Origin: Desulfocapsaceae bacterium
GTDB lineage: Bacteria > Desulfobacterota > Desulfobulbia > Desulfobulbales > Desulfocapsaceae
DNA: 64,000 nucleotides
Assembly (NCBI GenBank): GCA_028697885.1
Contig: JAQVER010000001.1
Coordinates: 19,970-83,969 of the forward strand
Reading direction: 5' to 3'
The translations under genes and the position numbers were made by a program. Below, in pieces: positions 5,083 to 13,057 of the stretch. Under the pieces are notes generated by a model that did no database searches, was not told the DNA's origin, and was given only the letters and a program-made list of their open reading frames with translations. Within the stretch, counting starts at the first letter, position 1, and each line of letters begins with the position of its first letter.

Positions 5083-8000
5083 ATGGTAAGTGTTGATCGG
5101 CAGCAGCACGCTTTAGAGGTCTTAAAGTATATCAACAAGGCGATCACTAATCTCCGCCTTTATCCTGAGCAGTCTGTACAGGTTGGTAATACAGTGGAGA
5201 AGGCCTACTCAGAGTTGAAGATCTTTTTACGTCTGTATGGAACCCTCAACTTTGGCTTGCACAAAGGTGTGCCGACTCTCGATGGCGTTATTTTTGAGAG
5301 AAGAGGAAGGGAACAGTTGGATGACTTGTCCCTGGTGGATTTTCTGGATAAGGCTGGACTTACGGGTATGACTCTGGTTCAAGGGCTTGACCGTAAACGA
5401 TTTAAGCAAATATTGTCTTTTTTTACCACCCATCACGAGCAGATTCAAAAATCCGGAGGGGTTGCTGCCTTTGTGAAAGACTCTGGCTTGGGCGCTGTTT
5501 TTCTTGGAGATAGTGATAGTGATGTGGTTCAGGAGCAGATTGTTACTCACAGCCTTAGTGATTATCTGCAACAATTAATGGTGAAGGGGGTTCGGCAGGA
5601 TCAGTTTCGTTCTTTACTCCGGCAGGGCGAGAATTGGCAGCAGAATGAGGATATAAGAAACGAATTGACAGGGGCAGATAAGGGTGTTGATGTCTTTGCC
5701 GCCGCTGTTTGTTTTGTGCTTCAGGATTTGCAACGGGCAGGTATCTATGAAGTTTCTCCTGGTTTTCGCCAGTTGTTGGAGAATATGACCGTTGCCTTGA
5801 AAGAAGAGGAAATTCGACAGGTCGCAGCTGGAGCTGCCTCGAAGTTGACTGTAAATCTTGATACGGCCTCCATGGCGCTGCTTGTTTGTCAGAGCTTTGC
5901 AACGCGTTTTGGTGAATCGTTTTTTGCCAGTCTTATGGCCTCCATTGACAAAGAATGCTTTCGCTCTCTGGTTGGTTTCTTGAGACAGGAAGGAGAGAGG
6001 CTGGATGGATCTCTGAGTCAGGTAGATGCAGAGTCCAGCCAACTAGTGAATGAGGCTTGTCAGCGCCTGATGGAAACGGGCAAAGGACGGCAGCTGCATG
6101 CCATAGAAAACATGGGCATGACGGAAAAACAACGGCAAAGTAAGCGGTTGCAGGCGGGATTGATCGCACTTACTCGAGGCAATCTGGATGGGCTAAGAAA
6201 CAAAGAGATATTGCTGCATCTCCCTGTCACTTTTGAGCGATTGATAATAAATAAAAAAGAAAATGTTGCTGCTGCCATTATCCAGACCCTTGTGGGGGGA
6301 CTCAAGCTTGAAGATGAGGAGTTGCGTCTTCGTTCAGGGCAGAGTCTTGGTTTAATTGGGGAGAAGTTGGTTGCCATGGATTATTGGGGGTGGTTGGAAA
6401 AATTAACCCCTACATTTCTTTTCTGGCTAAGACGCTCTGAAGATGTAGATGATGCCAGCACTCTGATTGTTAAGGTTTTACAGGACATTCTGACCCATGC
6501 TCAAAAAACAGGAAATGAGGATCTGGTTGATAAGATACTTCCCCTCTTCTATGCTATTCGCTCCGGGGCTTTAGGAAAAACAATAGAGATGAGGAATCTG
6601 GTGGGCCAGATTCAGGATAAGGCTGTTGACCGAAGCGTCCTTCAGGCCTACCTTGACGAGTCTTTTGAGAAACCGATTAAAGCGATGTGTTGTCAGAAGA
6701 TTGTTATGCATGGTCCGTTGGGAATCCAGTTTTTGTTGGACTCATTGTTAACCAACAACAGTAGGCCAGAGCGGATCCGGCTGTTGAAAATTCTTGCTGG
6801 TGTCGGTGGAGATTTTTCCTCACTTCTTCTGGCGCGATTGCAGGAGCCCATGCCCTGGTATGGAAAACGTAATCTGATCAGGTTACTGGCTGCAACTGGC
6901 AATGAAGAAGATGTTGTTGCTGTGCAGGGATATCTTACCCATGATGACCTTCGAGTTCAAAGTGAGGCCCTGGCCTGTATTTATAAACTCAGTGATCAAA
7001 AGAAGAAACAGTATCTTCTTGATGCGCTACCGCGGATCAGTGAAAAATTGAAGTTTCAGGTGGTTCAGGCCTTGGCCGCAGTGGTGGACGAAGAGGTGGT
7101 CGAGGTCCTGATTGAACTATTGCAGGATGAAAAGTATTTTTCCGATGATATCAAAACAACACTTCTGGTCAGTATCTGTGAGACTTTGGGGCGGAGTGGT
7201 TCTGCTCAGGCACAGAAGGTCCTGCAGAGCATGTCGGGAAAAGAAAATGTCCGTTCTAAAAAGATGACCAAAGAAGTATGGCAGGCAGTCCAGCGGGGGC
7301 TGGCATTGCTTGATGTGAGTCGCAGGCAGCAGAAAGAGAGGCATGCCGAGATTCAGAAGAGCTCAAAAAACGCGGTCAGGATGGTTCAGTCCGGGCAGAA
7401 CAGGTCAGGGGTATATACCCCGGTAACAAATCTGGCCGAAGAACAGGAACTCTATACGTTGCTTGCTCAAAACAAAAAAGTAGCAGCAAAAGGACTTCTT
7501 TTGGATCTGATTTCCACCATGAGCTATCTCCGGCAGTTTGATCAGGCAGAAGTGCTTTGTCAACGTTTGGTTGAGATTGACCCCTTGGCCATGGAAGATA
7601 TTATAAAAGCTACTGAACTGGTTGCGGAACAGAGAGCCGCCAGTAGTGATCAGGGACAGAGTCTGAGCTGGGTGGAACTCTATGACTTTCTGACCACTGA
7701 TGAATTCAAAACCTTGTATTCTTCCATGGAGCAGGTAACGTTTAGTCCTGATGAGAAAATTGTGAATCAGGGCGATCTGCAGCAACGGCTTTTCTTTATT
7801 AATAAGGGACGGGTTAAGCTGTTTTCCCGGGACCTTCATGGCAATGATATTCTGTTGAAAACGCTAGGGCCAGGGGAAATTTTTGGTTTAGATTCTTTTT
7901 TTAAGGCATCCGTCTGGACCGTCAATGCGGCAAGTGTCGGCACGGTTGACGTCTTTGTCCTGCCGCACGAGGCGCTTCGTGGATGGCAGAATAGCTTTCC

Positions 8001-8448
8001 TGGTCTGGAGTTAAAACTGCAGAATTTTTGTCAGCAGCTTGTTGAGCATGATACTCTGAAAGTTATGGCCATTGATCGTCGTGGTACCGAACGATTGAAG
8101 TTCTCAGGCCGGCTTGCGATGGCTATCCTTGACGATCAGGGTAAGGAGACAGGAACTGTCTTACAGGGTGAGAACGGTGACGTTTCGATCGGTGGTATTT
8201 CTTCCACGGTCCGCATCTCTCAAAAAAGAAACATTCGTCTGTTGCTCGGGCGGAAGATAGCTGTCCGTTTAGTGGATGGGCCGATTAACAGTCCGTTGAC
8301 GTCTGGGATGGCAGGTCTTGTGGTGGCGATCTATGTTGAGGATTCGAGCCACGAAGATTCGACGGCCTATGTGCATTATTCGATCCATGTCCAATTTGAT
8401 CAGCCCATGCAGGAAGCTGATCTGGCAGTAATCGCCTCTGGTGGTTGA
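5083..8448 (+). CDS. 1121-aa multidomain protein: long HEAT/armadillo-like repeat region, cyclic-nucleotide-binding-like domain, C-terminal PilZ domain
   Basis: PBS-lyase-type HEAT repeats are present (e.g. LLKILAGVGGDF..LLAATGNEEDVVAVQGYL..ALACIYKL). A cNMP-like beta-roll lies at about 7670-7990 (FSPDEKIVNQGDLQQRLFFINKGRVKLF...GPGEIFGLDSFF). PilZ signatures are RRGTER at 8077-8094 and DVSIGG (DxSxxG) at 8179-8196. Confidence 0.8.
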   Translation: MVSVDRQQHALEVLKYINKAITNLRLYPEQSVQVGNTVEKAYSELKIFLRLYGTLNFGLHKGVPTLDGVIFERRGREQLDDLSLVDFLDKAGLTGMTLVQGLDRKRFKQILSFFTTHHEQIQKSGGVAAFVKDSGLGAVFLGDSDSDVVQEQIVTHSLSDYLQQLMVKGVRQDQFRSLLRQGENWQQNEDIRNELTGADKGVDVFAAAVCFVLQDLQRAGIYEVSPGFRQLLENMTVALKEEEIRQVAAGAASKLTVNLDTASMALLVCQSFATRFGESFFASLMASIDKECFRSLVGFLRQEGERLDGSLSQVDAESSQLVNEACQRLMETGKGRQLHAIENMGMTEKQRQSKRLQAGLIALTRGNLDGLRNKEILLHLPVTFERLIINKKENVAAAIIQTLVGGLKLEDEELRLRSGQSLGLIGEKLVAMDYWGWLEKLTPTFLFWLRRSEDVDDASTLIVKVLQDILTHAQKTGNEDLVDKILPLFYAIRSGALGKTIEMRNLVGQIQDKAVDRSVLQAYLDESFEKPIKAMCCQKIVMHGPLGIQFLLDSLLTNNSRPERIRLLKILAGVGGDFSSLLLARLQEPMPWYGKRNLIRLLAATGNEEDVVAVQGYLTHDDLRVQSEALACIYKLSDQKKKQYLLDALPRISEKLKFQVVQALAAVVDEEVVEVLIELLQDEKYFSDDIKTTLLVSICETLGRSGSAQAQKVLQSMSGKENVRSKKMTKEVWQAVQRGLALLDVSRRQQKERHAEIQKSSKNAVRMVQSGQNRSGVYTPVTNLAEEQELYTLLAQNKKVAAKGLLLDLISTMSYLRQFDQAEVLCQRLVEIDPLAMEDIIKATELVAEQRAASSDQGQSLSWVELYDFLTTDEFKTLYSSMEQVTFSPDEKIVNQGDLQQRLFFINKGRVKLFSRDLHGNDILLKTLGPGEIFGLDSFFKASVWTVNAASVGTVDVFVLPHEALRGWQNSFPGLELKLQNFCQQLVEHDTLKVMAIDRRGTERLKFSGRLAMAILDDQGKETGTVLQGENGDVSIGGISSTVRISQKRNIRLLLGRKIAVRLVDGPINSPLTSGMAGLVVAIYVEDSSHEDSTAYVHYSIHVQFDQPMQEADLAVIASGG

Positions 8449-8524
8449 TATTTTAAACGCTGCTTTCCGGTCTCCATCTTTTTAGTTTTATCTCTTATTA
8501 TTCCACCAAAGGAGCTGCCTTGGT

Positions 8525-10303
8525 ATGGAGCCAAATGAGGCTGTATCCTTATTTTATCACGGGTATCTGCACAACATCTGTGAGGAAAAATCACATCTCA
8601 GCGCTGATTGTCCTTTCTGTCAAAAGCAGGGTAGAGACTATAGTGGCCGTTTGGTCGTATCTCTCAATAAGGCTGGTTTTTTTTATGGATATTTCCGCTG
8701 TCTGAATCATTGCGTGCCTGGCGGCTTTCCGCTCTGGTTTGCCAGGTTGATGGGAATCAACCCTGTTGATGTTCCAGGGTATGACCCTGATCGGGAACTT
8801 TTTTTAAGAAAGATAGATTATCCGATAGTCAATATCAATAATGAAATTAAGTTGTATCAGGACAGGCTCAGTGGAGAAATTCTAGCCCGCTTTCAGAAGG
8901 CGGGGATCGGTCCAGCTGTCCTTGCAGAGTTGAAAATTGGCTTTAATGGCCGTTATCTTGTCTATCCCTATGTGCAGGACGATGGCAATTGCTATGCCGC
9001 TCGTTGTGTCTTCCCAGAGAGGAAGGAAGATTTTTTCTGGCATGGCGATGAACAATTTTTTGGTGATCAGCACCATGTCTTTAATCTTCAGGATCTTCAG
9101 CGGTGTGAGAATGGTGCACTTTTTGTCTGTCAAGGAGAGGAAAATCTTCTTGCTCTGAAGCAGCTCGGCTTCCCCGGTGTTGCTGTTCCTGACTGCCACA
9201 GTCTGGAGGCTCTTGCTTCGGAGCATTTTTCCTTTGTGCATACCGTTTTTATTGTCATGGAGAATAATGCTGAAGCAGAGGCTGCGGCGCGCAGTGTTGC
9301 TGCCAGAATTGGCTATAAGGCCCGTCTCTTCAGGTGGCCAGCTTCTCTTGCAAAAGATTATAGTCTGTGGCAATTGGCCTGTGACAAGGGAAAGGATTTT
9401 AAGGCGGCTGTTTCGTCGATGATCCAGGCGTCCAGCGCCTTTTCGCCGTTCGCCAGTCCAAGGCGGGAGTATGATCGTTTTCTGGAGCAGCTGGCCTTGG
9501 AATCCGGTTCTGCTTATGGTGCTCTCAGCTCCGGGTTTCCTCAATTTGATCAGGCTCTGGAGGGCGTTCATGGAATTAATATTATCGGTGGTGCACCTAA
9601 ATCCGGAAAATCCATTTTTGCTATCCAGATTGCCACTGATATGGCACAGCGAAAGGTGCCGGTGCTCTATTATGATTTTGAGAATGGCAGACAGAAGATC
9701 TATCAACGGACCTTGAGCCGCTTGAGTCGTTTATCCACCGGCGATATCAAAAATGGTGTTGCAAGAGGTGTGGTCGGTCAAGATCTTGATCGTGCTCGCC
9801 AGGATTTTCAAGATATTCTCAGTTCTTTCCGAGTTGTAAATGATCGGAAACTTAACTCTGAGATCATGCGTCGTCATATAGACTTCATCCGTCATGAGAC
9901 TCGGAGTGATTATACAGTGGTGGTGATTGACAGTCTGCATAAGTTGCCTTTTAAAGATTTTACCGAGCAACGCTCTGGGATTGACGCCTGGTTGCGACAA
10001 CTGGAGGCTATCCGGGATGAGCTGCAGGTCTCTTTTGTGATCATCTCTGAATTGTCGCGGGGAGTTGGTGATGGTTATACGGATATGCCCCATATGGGAG
10101 TTTTTAAAGGTTCCGGAGATATTGAGTATAGTGCTGATAATGCCCTGGTCCTTGCCCCTGAGTGGGATTCTCTGGGGGCAGTCGTTAAAGAGCAACGGCA
10201 GAATAAGCTGTGGCTGGTGGCCAGTCGTGAACACAGTCCCGGCCTTGTGGCAAGGTATCGTCTGGATTATCCTTATTGGGGATTTGTGGAGCTGAATGAG
10301 TAG
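8525..10303 (+). CDS. T7 gp4/Twinkle-like protein: N-terminal Cys4 zinc ribbon, Toprim-like domain with substituted acidic residues, C-terminal DnaB-family (RecA-fold) ATPase
   Basis: The zinc ribbon is CPFC...CLNHC (8609-8713). Toprim-like elements are FVCQGEENLL (9128-9145) and IVMENNAEAEAAARSVA (9254-9274) where DxD..AG is expected. Walker A is GGAPKSGKS (9587-9613) and Walker B-like is VVVIDSLHKL. DnaB-like motifs are ISELSRGV and FKGSGDIEYSADNALVL. Confidence 0.8.
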   Translation: MEPNEAVSLFYHGYLHNICEEKSHLSADCPFCQKQGRDYSGRLVVSLNKAGFFYGYFRCLNHCVPGGFPLWFARLMGINPVDVPGYDPDRELFLRKIDYPIVNINNEIKLYQDRLSGEILARFQKAGIGPAVLAELKIGFNGRYLVYPYVQDDGNCYAARCVFPERKEDFFWHGDEQFFGDQHHVFNLQDLQRCENGALFVCQGEENLLALKQLGFPGVAVPDCHSLEALASEHFSFVHTVFIVMENNAEAEAAARSVAARIGYKARLFRWPASLAKDYSLWQLACDKGKDFKAAVSSMIQASSAFSPFASPRREYDRFLEQLALESGSAYGALSSGFPQFDQALEGVHGINIIGGAPKSGKSIFAIQIATDMAQRKVPVLYYDFENGRQKIYQRTLSRLSRLSTGDIKNGVARGVVGQDLDRARQDFQDILSSFRVVNDRKLNSEIMRRHIDFIRHETRSDYTVVVIDSLHKLPFKDFTEQRSGIDAWLRQLEAIRDELQVSFVIISELSRGVGDGYTDMPHMGVFKGSGDIEYSADNALVLAPEWDSLGAVVKEQRQNKLWLVASREHSPGLVARYRLDYPYWGFVELNE

Positions 10304-10476: not shown

Positions 10477-11160
10477 ATGCGACGAATAACTACTGGTATT
10501 GTGGCTGGTCTGCTCCTGCTAAGCGCTCATCATGCGCAGGCCTTTGATGAAAAAGGAGGAAATGCGCTTTGGGGCAAATATGCCATCCAAACATGTCGAT
10601 CCTGCCATAAAGAAAAAGGGTTGAGCAGTCTGGAGCCAGATGAAAAGAGCGCTGCGGAGTGGGAATCGTTTTTTGTCGATCGGTATAAGAAATTGCGGGA
10701 TATGAACCATGATTTCTCAGCAATAGGGATTAATGAACGTCAGTTGGAAAATATTCATCGTTACCTGCTTGAAGATTCAATGAAAAGAGAGGCTGGCAAG
10801 GCTCCTGAGACCACTGCGTTAAAAACCATTGGGGCAAAGCCTAAAAAGGTGCTGGCAGAGGATGACGAAAAAATGGAGGGGGCTGGTCTGTTTAATGCTT
10901 CCGCTGGAGATGCTAGGAAGGGGCGCTATGTTTTTCGAAGGTGTCTGACCTGCCATAAAAAAAATGATGCGCCGATTATCAGTCCTGCTGATCGAACCAA
11001 GGCGGCCTGGGATCGTTATTTTGCCAATGATTTTAAAAAATTGAAAAAAGATATGCCCAAGTTTGATACCTACGGGTTTACTATTGGTCAGATGGAGCAT
11101 TTGCATCAGTTTGTTCTGGAGTACGCACTGGATGCATCAAGACCTAAGACCTGTGAATAA
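10477..11160 (+). CDS. Periplasmic diheme c-type cytochrome (internally duplicated)
   Basis: Signal peptide MRRITTGIVAGLLLLSAHHAQA. The two CxxCH motifs are CRSCH (10594-10608) and CLTCH (10942-10956). The halves align: AAEWESFFVDRYKKLRDM..ERQLENIHRYLLE versus KAAWDRYFANDFKKLKKDM..IGQMEHLHQFVLE. Confidence 0.85.
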   Translation: MRRITTGIVAGLLLLSAHHAQAFDEKGGNALWGKYAIQTCRSCHKEKGLSSLEPDEKSAAEWESFFVDRYKKLRDMNHDFSAIGINERQLENIHRYLLEDSMKREAGKAPETTALKTIGAKPKKVLAEDDEKMEGAGLFNASAGDARKGRYVFRRCLTCHKKNDAPIISPADRTKAAWDRYFANDFKKLKKDMPKFDTYGFTIGQMEHLHQFVLEYALDASRPKTCE

Positions 11161-11250
11161 AGAGGGGATCTCGAAAGCTGTTTTTCTTAAAATAGTTTCT
11201 GTCTCAATTTCAGGAAAATGGTAGTTGACAGTGAATGAGCAACGCAGAAA

Positions 11251-11291
11251 GCGAAAGGCCTTTTTACCGGTTTGGTAAAAAGGCCTTTCGC
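11251..11291. terminator. Bidirectional hairpin terminator between convergent genes
   Basis: A perfect 18-bp stem, GCGAAAGGCCTTTTTACC-GGTTT-GGTAAAAAGGCCTTTCGC, lies between the cytochrome stop (11160) and the barrel-protein stop (11333). Confidence 0.7.
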
Positions 11292-11332
11292 TTTGGTGCT
11301 ATTTCTTTATATGAGCGATGCTCTTGTTTTTG

Positions 11333-13057
11333 TTACCAACGATATGCGAGATTGACATAATAGTTCCACATGGTATCGACCACCGGCATAAAGGTGTCCA
11401 GAGATGTCAGCTCTGAGATCTTAACCGGATCACCCATGGGGCTGCCGCTGCCTGAATATTCATAATCATAATATTGGGCGCCAATTGAGAGTACAAGTTT
11501 ATTGTCAACAAAGGGCTGGTTGTAGAATATTTCATATACACTTCCCCGGGTGGCCAGTTTGCTGCCGGCAATGTTGTCCTCGCCACCAGTGAAACCTAGC
11601 CAGTATTGGGAGCCCCAGTTGTATTCGAAGCCAATGGTGCCTTCAGTCCAAGAGACAGGCGCTTTCACACCTGCCCAGATGGAGTAGCCGGTCCGGTCAA
11701 ACTGTTCGCCGTTGCTGTTGAGCAGTCCGTCTGTGCCAAAAAATTGCATCATGGGGCTCATCGATATTCCGGACGGACGGGTATGGCTGAGGGCCAAGTC
11801 GGCGAAGAAACCTATGTCTTTGTATTCAGATTGACCAAGGAGGGTAATAATGTCAATGTCGCCAATGTTGGCCGTAGGTTCTGTTCGACTGATATAGCCG
11901 CCAGTGTTTGCAGTCATGCTGTAGCTATCATAACGGCCATCTCCATTCATATCCATGCCAGACATGGTGAAGGGCATAACCACAAGTCCGGTAAAGCCGT
12001 CTGTGACATCAAAGGCATGGGCGTACATGTTGATGACTTTTGTCTTGTCATTTTCGTAAAGATTGGCTATCCAGCCAGCAAACTGCATGTCCTTGACGTC
12101 CGAGGAGGATGAAAAAGAATAGGAGTTTCCTGACCCGGCACCAGACTCAAAGCCATTTCCCCAGCAGATTTTGAAGGCGGATCCTTCTACGCCAGTTGCT
12201 TCCGCCAGGTTGAATCCCAGGGATGCCCCGTCAAATTGCCAGTTGATGCCGTGTGCCATGGGAGAGCCGCCGACGGTACTGGCATTGCTGAATTCTGAAG
12301 GCGCTCCATCAAGGGCCGGGCGGCGACCGATGGAGAAATGATAGGGTATTCCATTGATATCGTCAAAATAAGTAAAAAAAGCACGTTCCAGACGGAGAGC
12401 TGAATCACTGCCTGTGGAGTGTACATTGCCATCCATGGTAACGGCATTGGGGCCGCCATTATACCATTTGACCCCGGAGGAATCGCCATAGACCTTGTTG
12501 GCGGAAAGCCGTCCAACAAAGGAGAGGGAGTCGGCAGGGCGGGCCTTTAAGTCAACGCGAATCCGGGTGCCAAAGATGGTGTTATTATCGATATCTTGAT
12601 CTTCCGGTGGGGGCAGAGGGCCAAGGGCGCCAAGGGCAGCCTTGGTGAAAGGAGTACCATTGGCCATGCTCATGATGCCATTCTGTAACGATTGCGGCAT
12701 GCCCTTGGCATCCATATGCAGGGAATTCAGTCTGGTTTCAAGATCGGCACTCAGGTTCAGTTTGTCCAGGGTGCTATGTTCTTCGTTGCTGGATACCCGT
12801 TTGTCCAAGTCGTCCAGCTCATCCTGCAGCTCCTGCCCATGACCACCTTGTTTGTTTTGTTGTTCCAGTGAAATTTGCAGCGTTTCTTCAGCAGTTGCCA
12901 GACGCTCATTGAGATCCATGACAATTGCTTTCAGCATCTCGATTTCCTGTACTAGTTCCTGGCTGGCTACAGGGCCGCCGGCAACGGCATCTCCCGGTAG
13001 GCCTTGGAACGATAAAAGTAATGTCGCTAAACTTGCAAGTCCGTAACGTTTTATCAT
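11333..13057 (-). CDS. Putative outer-membrane beta-barrel protein with N-terminal coiled coil (DUF3373-like)
   Basis: Signal peptide MIKRYGLASLATLLLSFQGLPGDAVA. About 90 aa of heptad-like sequence follow (QELVQEIEMLKAIVMDLNERLATAEETLQ). The rest is a long Gly/Ser/aromatic-rich region with alternating pattern, ending in YYVNLAYRW (terminal aromatic residue). Size and layout fit my memory of DUF3373. Confidence 0.7.
   Translation of the reverse strand: MIKRYGLASLATLLLSFQGLPGDAVAGGPVASQELVQEIEMLKAIVMDLNERLATAEETLQISLEQQNKQGGHGQELQDELDDLDKRVSSNEEHSTLDKLNLSADLETRLNSLHMDAKGMPQSLQNGIMSMANGTPFTKAALGALGPLPPPEDQDIDNNTIFGTRIRVDLKARPADSLSFVGRLSANKVYGDSSGVKWYNGGPNAVTMDGNVHSTGSDSALRLERAFFTYFDDINGIPYHFSIGRRPALDGAPSEFSNASTVGGSPMAHGINWQFDGASLGFNLAEATGVEGSAFKICWGNGFESGAGSGNSYSFSSSSDVKDMQFAGWIANLYENDKTKVINMYAHAFDVTDGFTGLVVMPFTMSGMDMNGDGRYDSYSMTANTGGYISRTEPTANIGDIDIITLLGQSEYKDIGFFADLALSHTRPSGISMSPMMQFFGTDGLLNSNGEQFDRTGYSIWAGVKAPVSWTEGTIGFEYNWGSQYWLGFTGGEDNIAGSKLATRGSVYEIFYNQPFVDNKLVLSIGAQYYDYEYSGSGSPMGDPVKISELTSLDTFMPVVDTMWNYYVNLAYRW

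What the first reader, a model, noticed from the sequence alone, without database searches (positions are those of the whole stretch)
8525..10303. Primase-helicase fusion whose Toprim acidic cluster is substituted (ExN in place of DxD)
The protein is collinear with T7 gp4:
- A Cys4 zinc ribbon, CPFC-x26-CLNHC.
- A Toprim segment with the conserved Glu (CQGEEN) and the distal Asp (AKD).
- A DnaB-type ATPase with Walker A (GAPKSGKS), Walker B (VVVIDSLH) and the SGDIEYSAD motif.

At the position of the metal-binding DxD..AG motif the sequence reads MENNAEAEAAA. The helicase motifs look intact while the primase catalytic centre looks altered. This resembles metazoan Twinkle, where primase chemistry was lost. 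A stand-alone copy in an otherwise housekeeping chromosomal context is unusual for bacteria, which normally carry separate DnaG and DnaB.
Basis: partly seen in the sequence, partly recalled or inferred. Interest (0 to 1): 0.65.

Follow-up and report, generated by a model that had tools for sequence, protein, structure and literature searches.

The report
Primase-dead phage-type helicase, chromosomal
This gene encodes a phage T7 gp4/Twinkle-like primase-helicase that sulfur bacteria of the order Desulfobulbales inherit as a single-copy chromosomal gene; its helicase motor looks intact and its primase metal site is lost, a bacterial parallel to the animal mitochondrial helicase Twinkle.

Summary
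Fold searches and profile searches both show the layout zinc ribbon, DnaG-type primase domain (with Toprim), then DnaB/gp4-type helicase.

An alignment with T7 gp4 and seven Toprim-positive relatives shows more loss than "DxD to ExN". T7 D161, D207, D209 and D237 are replaced family-wide. E157 is Gln here. Only E159 (E205) is kept.

The zinc cysteines, the primase-domain nucleic-acid-binding residues and all helicase catalytic residues are conserved. dN/dS is about 0.1 along the whole protein.

The genome has separate canonical DnaB and DnaG. The gene is single-copy, in 92 of 201 sampled genomes of its order and almost none outside. It has syntenic housekeeping flanks, so it is not a prophage gene. 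It branches as one clade next to Toprim-positive relatives, one of which sits in a mobile-element context.

In two bacterial families it lies just downstream of a HEAT/cNMP/PilZ sensor protein. In six others it does not.

Most likely it is a domesticated, primase-dead, self-loading accessory helicase. Its biological role is unknown. I found no description in the papers searched.

The parts
8525..10303 (+). Complete ORF (592 aa + stop): gp4/Twinkle-type primase-helicase homologue with a degenerate primase metal site
8509..8514 (+). Shine-Dalgarno AAGGAG, 10 nt before the ATG
8525..8764 (+). Zinc-ribbon domain (res 1-80). C29, C32, C59 and C63 are invariant in 42/42 homologues and align with T7 C17/C20/C36/C39.
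8915..9094 (+). N-terminal subdomain of the DnaG-type RNA-polymerase domain (res 131-190). Y144, Y149, R160 and R166 correspond to T7 Y106, Y111, K122 and K128 and are retained.
9095..9424 (+). Toprim-fold subdomain (res 191-300) lacking its acidic ligands
9128..9145 (+). Degenerate EGExD box, CQGEEN. Q203 = T7 E157, E205 = T7 E159 (invariant), N207 = T7 D161.
9257..9280 (+). Degenerate DxD box, MENNAEAE. E246 = T7 D207 (variable in the family), N248 = T7 D209 (N/S/T). E250 is a family-specific invariant Glu.
9362..9364 (+). S280, at the position of T7 D237 (N/S/T, and D in 5 of 42)
9425..9529 (+). Linker region between the primase-like and helicase domains (res 301-335)
9530..10300 (+). DnaB/gp4-type (SF4) RecA-fold helicase domain; Pfam DnaB_C at 85 bits
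9587..9613 (+). Walker A GGAPKSGKS (K362 = T7 K318, invariant)
9671..9688 (+). Motif H1a, YDFENG (E386 = T7 catalytic E343, invariant)
9917..9940 (+). Walker B VVVIDSLH (D469 = T7 D424, invariant)
10046..10060 (+). Motif H3, SELSR (E509 at the T7 H465 sensor position; invariant Glu in the family and in its close Toprim-positive relatives)
10103..10138 (+). Motif H4 / DNA-binding loop, FKGSGDIEYSAD
10226..10228 (+). R568 = T7 arginine finger R522 (invariant)
5083..8448 (+). Upstream neighbour (1121 aa): HEAT repeats (6823-7029), cNMP-binding domain (7735-7980), and a PilZ-type C-terminus with RxxxR (8077-8094) and DxSxxG (8179-8196). It is adjacent to the helicase gene in two bacterial families only.

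Best explanation
The gene encodes a domesticated phage- or mobile-element-type primase-helicase of the T7 gp4 kind.

Shown by computation:
- The protein keeps three modules: a C4 zinc ribbon, a DnaG-type RNA-polymerase domain with a Toprim fold, and an SF4 (DnaB/gp4) RecA-fold helicase domain.
- The helicase catalytic residues are all present: Walker A Lys, catalytic Glu, Walker B Asp, the H4 DNA-binding loop and the Arg finger.
- The acidic residues that hold the catalytic Mg2+ in Toprim primases are replaced throughout the family.
- The gene is a single-copy, vertically inherited chromosomal gene under strong purifying selection along its whole length.
- The genome has its own DnaB and DnaG.

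Inferred:
- It forms a ring and works as a 5'-3' ssDNA translocase/helicase that cannot make primers.
- The zinc ribbon and the basic/aromatic tract of the primase-like domain are kept to capture ssDNA and load the ring without a separate loader, as described for T7 gp4 and Twinkle.
- It therefore serves as an accessory helicase in a DNA transaction other than bulk replication, such as repair, restart or recombination.
- In the two families where it sits directly behind a HEAT/cNMP/PilZ protein, its activity or recruitment may be tied to cyclic-nucleotide signalling.
For: Architecture:
- Foldseek on the full model ranks T7 gp4 (5ikn, 6n9x, 1q57) and Twinkle (7t8b/c) first, E down to 7e-21.
- The N-terminal model hits only DnaG/gp4/Twinkle/gp61 primases.
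- PHROG 239 'primase/helicase' matches at 5.8e-28.
- The profile of the N-terminal domain finds relatives with Zn_ribbon_DnaG + Toprim_2 + DnaB_C.

Loss of ligands:
- Eight Toprim-positive sequences, including T7 gp4, all have Asp at the D161/D207/D209/D237 columns.
- The 42 family members have N/T/S, a variable residue, N/S/T and N/S/T (D in 5) at those columns.
- The E157 position is Q here.

Intact motor: K362, E386, D469, R568 and G531 are invariant.

Constraint:
- Mean pairwise identity is 70% for the RPD N-subdomain, 62% for Toprim and 72% for the helicase.
- Median dN/dS is 0.11 for the N-terminal half and 0.086 for the helicase.

Not the replicative pair: canonical DnaB and DnaG lie elsewhere in a 99.8%-complete genome.

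Not mobile:
- One copy per genome in 92 of 201 genomes of the order, and 5 of about 380 outside it in the phylum sample.
- Flanks are syntenic and GC is flat.
- PADLOC gave only two marginal matches (E about 5e-4, 17-18 bits).

Origin:
- The family is one clade (SH-aLRT 100) beside or within Toprim-positive relatives.
- The basal member P0131 still has two of the four Asp.
- The Toprim-positive relative P0169 sits among serine recombinases, an MCM helicase, a PolA and HTH repressors.

Precedent for a non-catalytic role of the primase domain:
- T7 R84 and Y111 are needed for loading on ssDNA (PMC9198812).
- The Twinkle N-terminal domain is needed for helicase activity although it lacks the metal ligands (PMC4417153, PMC2241861).
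Against: - There is no biochemical or expression evidence.
- The primase-like domain is as conserved as the motor, and the zinc ribbon is fully kept, unlike human Twinkle. That would also fit a retained or new chemistry.
- Three acidic residues are (nearly) invariant at the C-terminal edge of the Toprim sheet (E205, D223, E250). I could not measure whether they form a replacement metal site, because no model coordinates are given.
- E509 replaces the His/Gln sensor of T7/DnaB, although the Toprim-positive relatives share this Glu.
- The biological process the protein serves is not identified.
- Gene neighbours differ between families, so context gives no single functional hint.
Confidence: 0.7

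Rival explanations
1. The primase-like domain is still an enzyme. Its metal site has been rebuilt from other acidic residues (E205 retained, plus family-specific D223, E250 and E/D252), and it still performs primer synthesis or another phosphoryl-transfer reaction such as nicking.
For: - E205 and E250 are invariant, D223 is in 38/42 and E/D252 in 40/42.
- By the model's secondary structure these residues sit at the C-terminal ends of Toprim strands 1, 2 and 3, which is the usual active-site face.
- The template/NTP tract (Y144, Y149, R160, R/K166) and the zinc ribbon are fully kept.
- dN/dS of the RPD + Toprim region is 0.12.
Against: - Four Asp columns that are invariant in all eight Toprim-positive sequences are all lost, and the canonical Glu varies (E/Q/V).
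- To my knowledge no Toprim enzyme works without the DxD pair.
- R84 of T7 is also lost, to A126.
Confidence: 0.12
2. It no longer acts on DNA. It is a RecA/KaiC-like ATPase that works as the output or scaffold partner of the neighbouring HEAT/cNMP/PilZ second-messenger receptor in a signalling module.
For: - It is directly adjacent to the HEAT/cNMP/PilZ gene in 24/30 genomes of family f1 and 14/29 of family f17.
- The two ORFs overlap in some genomes.
- The partner's PilZ RxxxR and DxSxxG motifs are invariant.
- Some databases label homologues 'KaiC/GvpD/RAD55 family ATPase'.
Against: - In 0 of 33 genomes of six other families is the partner adjacent.
- The helicase gene occurs without any long partner (for example G016), and the partner occurs without it (G017, G121).
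- The H4 DNA-binding loop, the Arg finger, the zinc ribbon and the primase nucleic-acid tract are conserved.
Confidence: 0.1
3. It is the replication gene of a prophage, plasmid or integrative element that happens to lie in this window.
For: - The closest Toprim-positive relatives are in mobile-element-like contexts.
- The best phage family match is PHROG 239.
Against: - There is no integrase, recombinase or other element gene nearby.
- The flanking housekeeping genes are syntenic across families.
- It is single-copy and its similarity tracks taxonomy.
- No phage record covers more than 64% of the protein, and that one at 23% identity.
- GC is flat.
Confidence: 0.03
4. It is the cell's main replicative helicase-primase, replacing DnaB and DnaG.
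For: The Desulfocapsa sulfexigens orthologue is annotated 'replicative DNA helicase' in NCBI.
Against: - Canonical DnaB (384 bits to DnaB_C, 500-aa frame) and DnaG (423 bits to TIGR01391) are present in the same genome.
- This protein scores 64.5 bits against a DnaB cut-off of 385.
- About half the genomes of the order lack it.
Confidence: 0.02

Closest known systems
Bacteriophage T7 gp4 primase-helicase, and phage/mobile-element primase-helicase fusions (PHROG 239; Zn_ribbon_DnaG + Toprim_2 + DnaB_C proteins)
   Same: - Same three-module order and fold.
- The zinc cysteines, the Y106/Y111/K122/K128 tract and all helicase catalytic residues align.
- The family branches next to Toprim-positive members of this group.
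   Different: - The equivalents of D161, D207, D209 and D237 (and E157 in this protein) are replaced, and R84 is lost.
- It is a single-copy chromosomal gene in a housekeeping context, not part of a phage or other element.
Metazoan Twinkle (mitochondrial replicative helicase)
   Same: - gp4-like architecture in which most metal-coordinating residues of the primase part are absent, while the N-terminal domain is still needed for helicase function (PMC4417153, PMC2241861).
- Among the top Foldseek hits.
   Different: - Human Twinkle has also lost the zinc-binding cysteines (PMC4417153, PMC8688847). Here all four are invariant.
- Twinkle is the replicative helicase of its genome. Here DnaB and DnaG exist alongside.
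- The loss appears independent, because the family nests among bacterial relatives. No Twinkle sequence was in that tree.
Bacterial DnaB replicative helicase
   Same: The C-terminal RecA-fold domain and its motifs H1-H4.
   Different: - No DnaB N-terminal domain.
- Scores far below the DnaB family cut-offs.
- The genome's real DnaB is a distant branch in the tree.
RadA/Sms (with its DisA / c-di-AMP link)
   Same: - An N-terminal C4 zinc finger plus a DnaB-like RecA-fold ring ATPase that acts in recombination and fork remodelling.
- A genetic and functional link to a cyclic-dinucleotide protein (PMC8645862).
- This is a functional analogy for 'accessory ring helicase coupled to a second messenger'.
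   Different: - No Lon-like C-terminal domain and no KNRFG motif.
- Only 28.5 bits against a RadA cut-off of 403.
- The genome has a separate RadA-like gene.
- The messenger partner here is a PilZ/cNMP receptor, not a cyclase.

Membership tests
T7 gp4-type primase-helicase | N-terminal Cys4 zinc ribbon | tested here: met
   C29/C32/C59/C63 align with T7 C17/C20/C36/C39 and are invariant in 42/42
T7 gp4-type primase-helicase | DnaG-type RNA-polymerase domain with a Toprim fold | tested here: met
   All 32 Foldseek hits of the N-terminal model at E<=3e-4 are DnaG, gp4, Twinkle or gp61 primases. PHROG 239 matches the N-terminal part alone at 5e-8. No Pfam Toprim model hits it directly.
T7 gp4-type primase-helicase | Toprim acidic metal ligands (T7 E157, D161, D207, D209, D237) | tested here: not met
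   Q203, N207, E246 (variable), N248 and S280. All eight Toprim-positive sequences have E/D in these columns.
T7 gp4-type primase-helicase | SF4 helicase motifs H1, H1a, H2, H4 and the arginine finger | tested here: met
   K362, E386, D469, FKGSGDIEY and R568 are invariant. DnaB_C scores 85 bits.
T7 gp4-type primase-helicase | Primer synthesis and 5'-3' unwinding activity | not testable with these tools
   Needs biochemistry
DnaB replicative helicase (TIGR00665) | Score above the family cut-off, DnaB N-terminal domain, sole SF4 helicase of the genome | tested here: not met
   64.5 bits against a cut-off of 385. The N-terminus is a primase fold. A canonical DnaB lies on contig C58.
DnaG primase (TIGR01391) | Match to the DnaG equivalog model | tested here: not met
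   The whole-genome search finds DnaG on C45 (423 bits) and only a weak hit on C53. This locus is not hit at E<=1e-3.
Metazoan Twinkle | Orthology with the eukaryotic Twinkle clade | not tested
   No Twinkle sequence was in the tree. The structural similarity is shared with all gp4-like proteins. The family nests among bacterial relatives.
RadA/Sms | Match to TIGR00416, KNRFG motif, Lon-like C-terminal domain | tested here: not met
   28.5 bits against a cut-off of 403. The protein ends after the RecA-fold domain.
Prophage / integrative-element replication module | Neighbouring integrase, recombinase or other element genes; patchy, multi-copy distribution | tested here: not met
   Neighbours are housekeeping genes and syntenic. 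One copy per genome, confined to a lineage.
Known anti-phage defence systems (PADLOC-DB) | Significant match to a defence-system protein model | tested here: not met
   Only two marginal hits, E about 5e-4 at 17-18 bits

The most novel reading that the evidence does not exclude
In the two Desulfobulbales families where the genes are adjacent (and in some genomes overlapping), the HEAT/cNMP/PilZ protein and the primase-dead helicase form a working pair. Binding of c-di-GMP or a cyclic mononucleotide by the partner would then gate loading or activity of a self-loading ring helicase. That would be a direct second-messenger switch on a DNA replication or repair motor, and I found no such pairing in the papers searched. 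A second, less likely novelty is that the former primase centre has been rebuilt (E205/D223/E250) for a different chemistry.
Probability: 0.2. Interest if true: 0.78.

Novelty: new variant of a known kind. Interest (0 to 1): 0.55.

Why it matters
This would be a bacterial counterpart of what happened to Twinkle in animal mitochondria. A phage-type primase-helicase was captured by a cellular lineage, lost primer synthesis and was kept for its motor. Here the capture is recent enough that Toprim-positive relatives, one in a mobile-element context, and a half-degenerate basal branch still exist.

It offers a tractable system for two questions:
- What does a primase-like domain do once catalysis is gone (ssDNA capture, self-loading, zinc or Fe-S chemistry)?
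- What does a second ring helicase do in a bacterium that already has DnaB?

The link to a PilZ/cNMP receptor in two families would, if functional, connect cyclic-nucleotide signalling to a DNA motor.

There is also a practical point. Homologues are currently annotated as 'replicative DNA helicase', 'KaiC/RAD55 ATPase' or 'FlaH', which is misleading.

Tried and rejected
- **Pfam and PDB sequence searches of the N-terminal 325 residues.** They found nothing. The primase assignment needed a family profile, PHROGs and fold comparison.
- **A universal partner gene.** I looked across eight bacterial families and found none. The immediate neighbours are LexA, Uma2, a ThiL-like AIRS protein, SfsA, ETF-alpha, a GGDEF protein, a PLD-type protein or the HEAT/cNMP/PilZ protein, depending on the lineage. 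I therefore rejected 'obligate two-gene module'.
- **Prophage or element origin of this copy.** Considered and rejected.
- **Defence-system membership.** No significant PADLOC hit.
- **A four-cysteine cluster (C156, C161, C194, C202) at the old active site.** C156 and C161 lie five residues apart on one beta-strand and so should face opposite sides. I dropped it as a specific proposal and could not test it without coordinates.
- **Promoter and terminator scans.** No convincing terminator between the partner gene and this gene, and no clear promoter either. Uninformative.
- **Literature.** Five searches found no description of this bacterial family or of a PilZ/primase-helicase pairing. The library lacks most subscription journals.
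Full report
**1. What is at the coordinates**

The ORF at 8525-10303 (+) encodes 592 residues and is the only long frame there. It has an AAGGAG ribosome-binding site 10 nt before the ATG.

Pfam recognises only the C-terminal DnaB_C/AAA_25 domain (res 334-543, 85 bits). The first 332 residues hit no Pfam model. A profile of the N-terminal part hits no PDB sequence even at E<=10. NCBIfam gives only sub-threshold DnaB-type hits, for example TIGR00665 at 64.5 bits against a cut-off of 385.

**2. Architecture**

An AlphaFold2 model built on 42 homologues has mean pLDDT 85.8. Its best Foldseek matches in the PDB are the T7 gp4 primase-helicase (5ikn, 6n9x, 1q57) and human Twinkle (7t8b, 7t8c), aligned over about 500 columns. 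DnaB helicases follow and match the C-terminal half only.

A separate model of residues 1-325 has pLDDT 79 and pTM 0.80. It hits nothing but DnaG-type primases among its 32 matches at E<=3e-4:
- Aquifex DnaG zinc-binding + polymerase domains (2au3)
- E. coli, S. aureus, B. subtilis and P. aeruginosa DnaG cores
- the T7 primase fragment (1nui)
- T4 gp61
- Twinkle

PHROG 239 'DNA primase/helicase' matches residues 107-552 at 5.8e-28, and the N-terminal part alone at 5e-8.

A profile of the N-terminal domain was searched against 1.84 billion representative proteins. It finds only 116 proteins at E<=1e-3. The more distant full-length ones carry Pfam Zn_ribbon_DnaG + Toprim_2 + DnaB_C. The collinearity with gp4 is therefore real, by both sequence and fold.

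**3. The Toprim centre**

I aligned this protein and seven other family members with seven Toprim-positive relatives and T7 gp4. The T7 sequence was taken from NC_001604. I then mapped the functional residues of T7 and counted them in 42 family members.

| T7 residue | This protein | 42 family members | Eight Toprim-positive sequences |
|---|---|---|---|
| E157 | Q203 | E 26, Q 12, V 4 | E in all |
| E159 | E205 | invariant E | E in 7, W in 1 |
| D161 | N207 | N/T/S, one D | D in all |
| D207 | E246 | variable: E, S, V, L, A... | D in all |
| D209 | N248 | N/S/T | D in all |
| D237 | S280 | N/S/T, D in 5 | D in all |

The loss is therefore wider than 'DxD to ExN':
- The E of 'ExN' is a variable position.
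The canonical one is Gln in this protein.
- T7 R84, which is needed for loading of full-length gp4 (PMC9198812), is also gone (A126).

What is kept:
- The four zinc cysteines are invariant.
- The aromatic/basic tract of the polymerase subdomain is retained. Y144, Y149, R160 and R/K166 correspond to T7 Y106, Y111, K122 and K128. [quoted passage not shown]

Three acidic residues specific to the family are invariant or nearly so: E195, D223 and E250. By secondary structure, D223 and E250 lie on the usual active-site edge of the sheet. I could not test whether they form a substitute site.

**4. The motor**

These residues are invariant in the family and conserved across the gp4 alignment:
- Walker A K362 (T7 K318)
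- catalytic E386 (E343)
- Walker B D469 (D424)
- the H4 loop FKGSGDIEY
- R568 (arginine finger R522)

The sensor position (T7 H465) is Glu. It is also Glu in the Toprim-positive close relatives, so this is a clade trait and not a defect.

**5. Selection**

Mean pairwise identity by region is 58% for the zinc ribbon, 70% for the RPD N-subdomain, 62% for Toprim and 72% for the helicase. Nei-Gojobori dN/dS among 12 orthologues has a median of 0.11 for residues 1-325, 0.12 for residues 131-300 and 0.086 for the helicase domain. The primase-like half is not decaying. It has a selected function.

**6. Genomic status**

The window's genome is 3.88 Mb and 99.8% complete. It has a canonical DnaB (384 bits, contig C58), a RadA-like gene (C105) and a canonical DnaG (423 bits, C45). 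This gene is therefore not the replicative pair.

GC content is flat across the locus. The neighbours are DUF362, FabL, Maf, a 1121-aa HEAT/cNMP/PilZ protein, a c-type cytochrome, DUF3373, a Tll0287-like/HAMP protein, TrmFO and a GGDEF protein. The same block is found around the orthologues in Desulfocapsa sulfexigens and in a metagenome-assembled genome (MAG) whose orthologue is 60% identical.

Distribution:
- The protein has more than 1,200 homologues at 60-92% identity, labelled Desulfobulbaceae, Desulfocapsaceae or Thermodesulfobacteriota.
- In a sample of 201 genomes of the order it is present once per genome in 92, within eight GTDB families and absent from the rest.
- In a 401-genome sample of the phylum only five genomes outside the order have it.
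- No phage record covers more than 64% of it, and that one at 23% identity.
- PADLOC gave only two marginal matches, E about 5e-4 at 17-18 bits.

**7. Origin**

In a maximum-likelihood tree the family is one clade (SH-aLRT 100). It sits beside or within the Toprim-positive relatives P0157, P0169, P0182, P0144 and P0158, far from the genome's own DnaB. Its earliest branch, P0131, is found in one genus outside the order. P0131 still has the D209 and D237 equivalents, which fits stepwise degeneration.

The Toprim-positive relative P0169 lies among two serine recombinases, an MCM helicase, a family-A DNA polymerase and HTH repressors. P0157 lies next to an HTH_17 protein and a Cas4-like nuclease. 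The simplest history is capture of a mobile-element primase-helicase by an ancestor of these Desulfobulbales, followed by loss of primase chemistry.

**8. The neighbour**

The upstream 1121-aa protein has HEAT repeats, a cNMP-binding domain and a C-terminal PilZ-type domain. Its RxxxR and DxSxxG motifs are invariant in seven orthologues.

Comparing the positions of both genes in the same 201 genomes gives:

| Group | Directly adjacent | Within 2-4 kb | Not linked / cannot tell |
|---|---|---|---|
| Family f1 (the window's own), 30 genomes | 24 | 3 | 3 |
| Family f17, 29 genomes | 14 | 6 | 9 |
| Six other families, 33 genomes | 0 | 0 | 33 |

- Overall, 38 of 92 genomes (41%) have the two genes directly adjacent.
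- In several genomes the two ORFs overlap: 11 nt in D. sulfexigens and 4 nt in L035.
- The partner exists without the helicase gene in genus g2 (G017, G121).
- The helicase gene exists without any long partner, for example in G016.
- Elsewhere the upstream gene is LexA (58-nt gap, L041), Uma2 (L042), an AIRS/ThiL-like protein, SfsA, ETF-alpha and others.

The pairing is therefore lineage-limited. It is suggestive of co-expression in those lineages, but it is not a defining feature.

**9. Mechanism proposed**

Shown: the domain architecture, the loss of the Toprim ligands, the intact motor residues, purifying selection, chromosomal vertical inheritance, and the presence of DnaB and DnaG elsewhere.

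Inferred:
- It is a hexameric 5'-3' ssDNA translocase that cannot prime.
- Its zinc ribbon and primase-like cleft capture ssDNA and help the ring load without a loader, as proposed for gp4 (PMC9198812) and shown to matter for Twinkle (PMC4417153, PMC2241861).
- It acts as an accessory helicase in repair, restart or recombination.

The LexA-linked copy in one lineage is a weak hint toward a role in the damage response. The DisA-RadA precedent (PMC8645862) is a weak hint that a ring helicase can be coupled to a cyclic-nucleotide protein. The zinc site might instead hold an Fe-S cluster in these anaerobes, as in the Drosophila helicase (PMC8688847). That is untested.

**10. Novelty and score**

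Five literature searches found no description of this bacterial family or of a PilZ/primase-helicase pair. The library is incomplete. The family has no dedicated Pfam or NCBIfam model, and its members are annotated inconsistently.

It is a new variant of a known kind: a gp4-type primase-helicase that has convergently reached the Twinkle state in a bacterial chromosome. Interest is moderate at 0.55. The finding is solid and conceptually neat, but the biology is unknown and the anomaly, a dead domain in a fusion protein, is of a familiar type.

Earlier notes of this scan on other genomes describe the same family and reach the same reading. I formed mine before reading them. I tested their main claims here and qualify the claim that the sensor gene is 'usually' adjacent.

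Noticed in passing
window 5083-8448 (+): A 1121-aa protein with HEAT repeats, a cNMP-binding domain and a PilZ-type C-terminus with intact RxxxR (8077-8094) and DxSxxG (8179-8196). The N-terminal 580 residues or so have no family assignment. The same genome has a shorter (about 790 aa) paralogue at G000:C57:19102-21438.
   Followed up: partly
L041:6291-6962 (+), genome G106: A LexA repressor gene (LexA_DNA_bind + Peptidase_S24) ends 58 nt before the orthologous helicase gene on the same strand. This suggests SOS control in that lineage.
   Followed up: partly
L042:8880-9548 (-), genome G179: A Uma2-family putative endonuclease gene ends about 15 nt before the orthologous helicase gene.
   Followed up: no
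P0131; L028 and L029 (genomes G227, G265): The basal subfamily (586 aa, 39% identical) lies outside the order. It still has Asp at the T7 D209 and D237 positions and has lost one zinc cysteine. It looks like a possible intermediate in the degeneration.
   Followed up: partly
window 8990-9130 (res 156-202): Family-specific cysteines C156, C161, C194 and C202 (three invariant) and the acidic residues E195, D223 and E250 surround the former primase cleft. Their purpose is unknown.
   Followed up: partly
G017:C8:290-3091 and G121:C1:1921715-1924711: One genus of the same family keeps the long HEAT/cNMP/PilZ gene but has no helicase-gene match. This is an apparent secondary loss of the helicase gene. 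I did not check for a pseudogene remnant.
   Followed up: no
L043 (contig of P0169): The Toprim-positive relative sits in an element with two serine recombinases, an MCM-family helicase, a family-A DNA polymerase and HTH repressors, so the element carries two different replicative-type helicases.
   Followed up: no
P0077 (Desulfocapsa sulfexigens DSM 10523, CP003985.1): The orthologue is annotated 'replicative DNA helicase'. Other homologues are labelled 'KaiC/GvpD/RAD55 family ATPase' or 'archaellum biogenesis ATPase FlaH'. These are inconsistent and probably wrong annotations.
   Followed up: partly
window 10477-13057: A c-type cytochrome gene (two haem-type motifs) and a DUF3373 gene follow the helicase gene. 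The same pair is conserved in D. sulfexigens, where a further multihaem/rhodanese gene lies between them.
   Followed up: no
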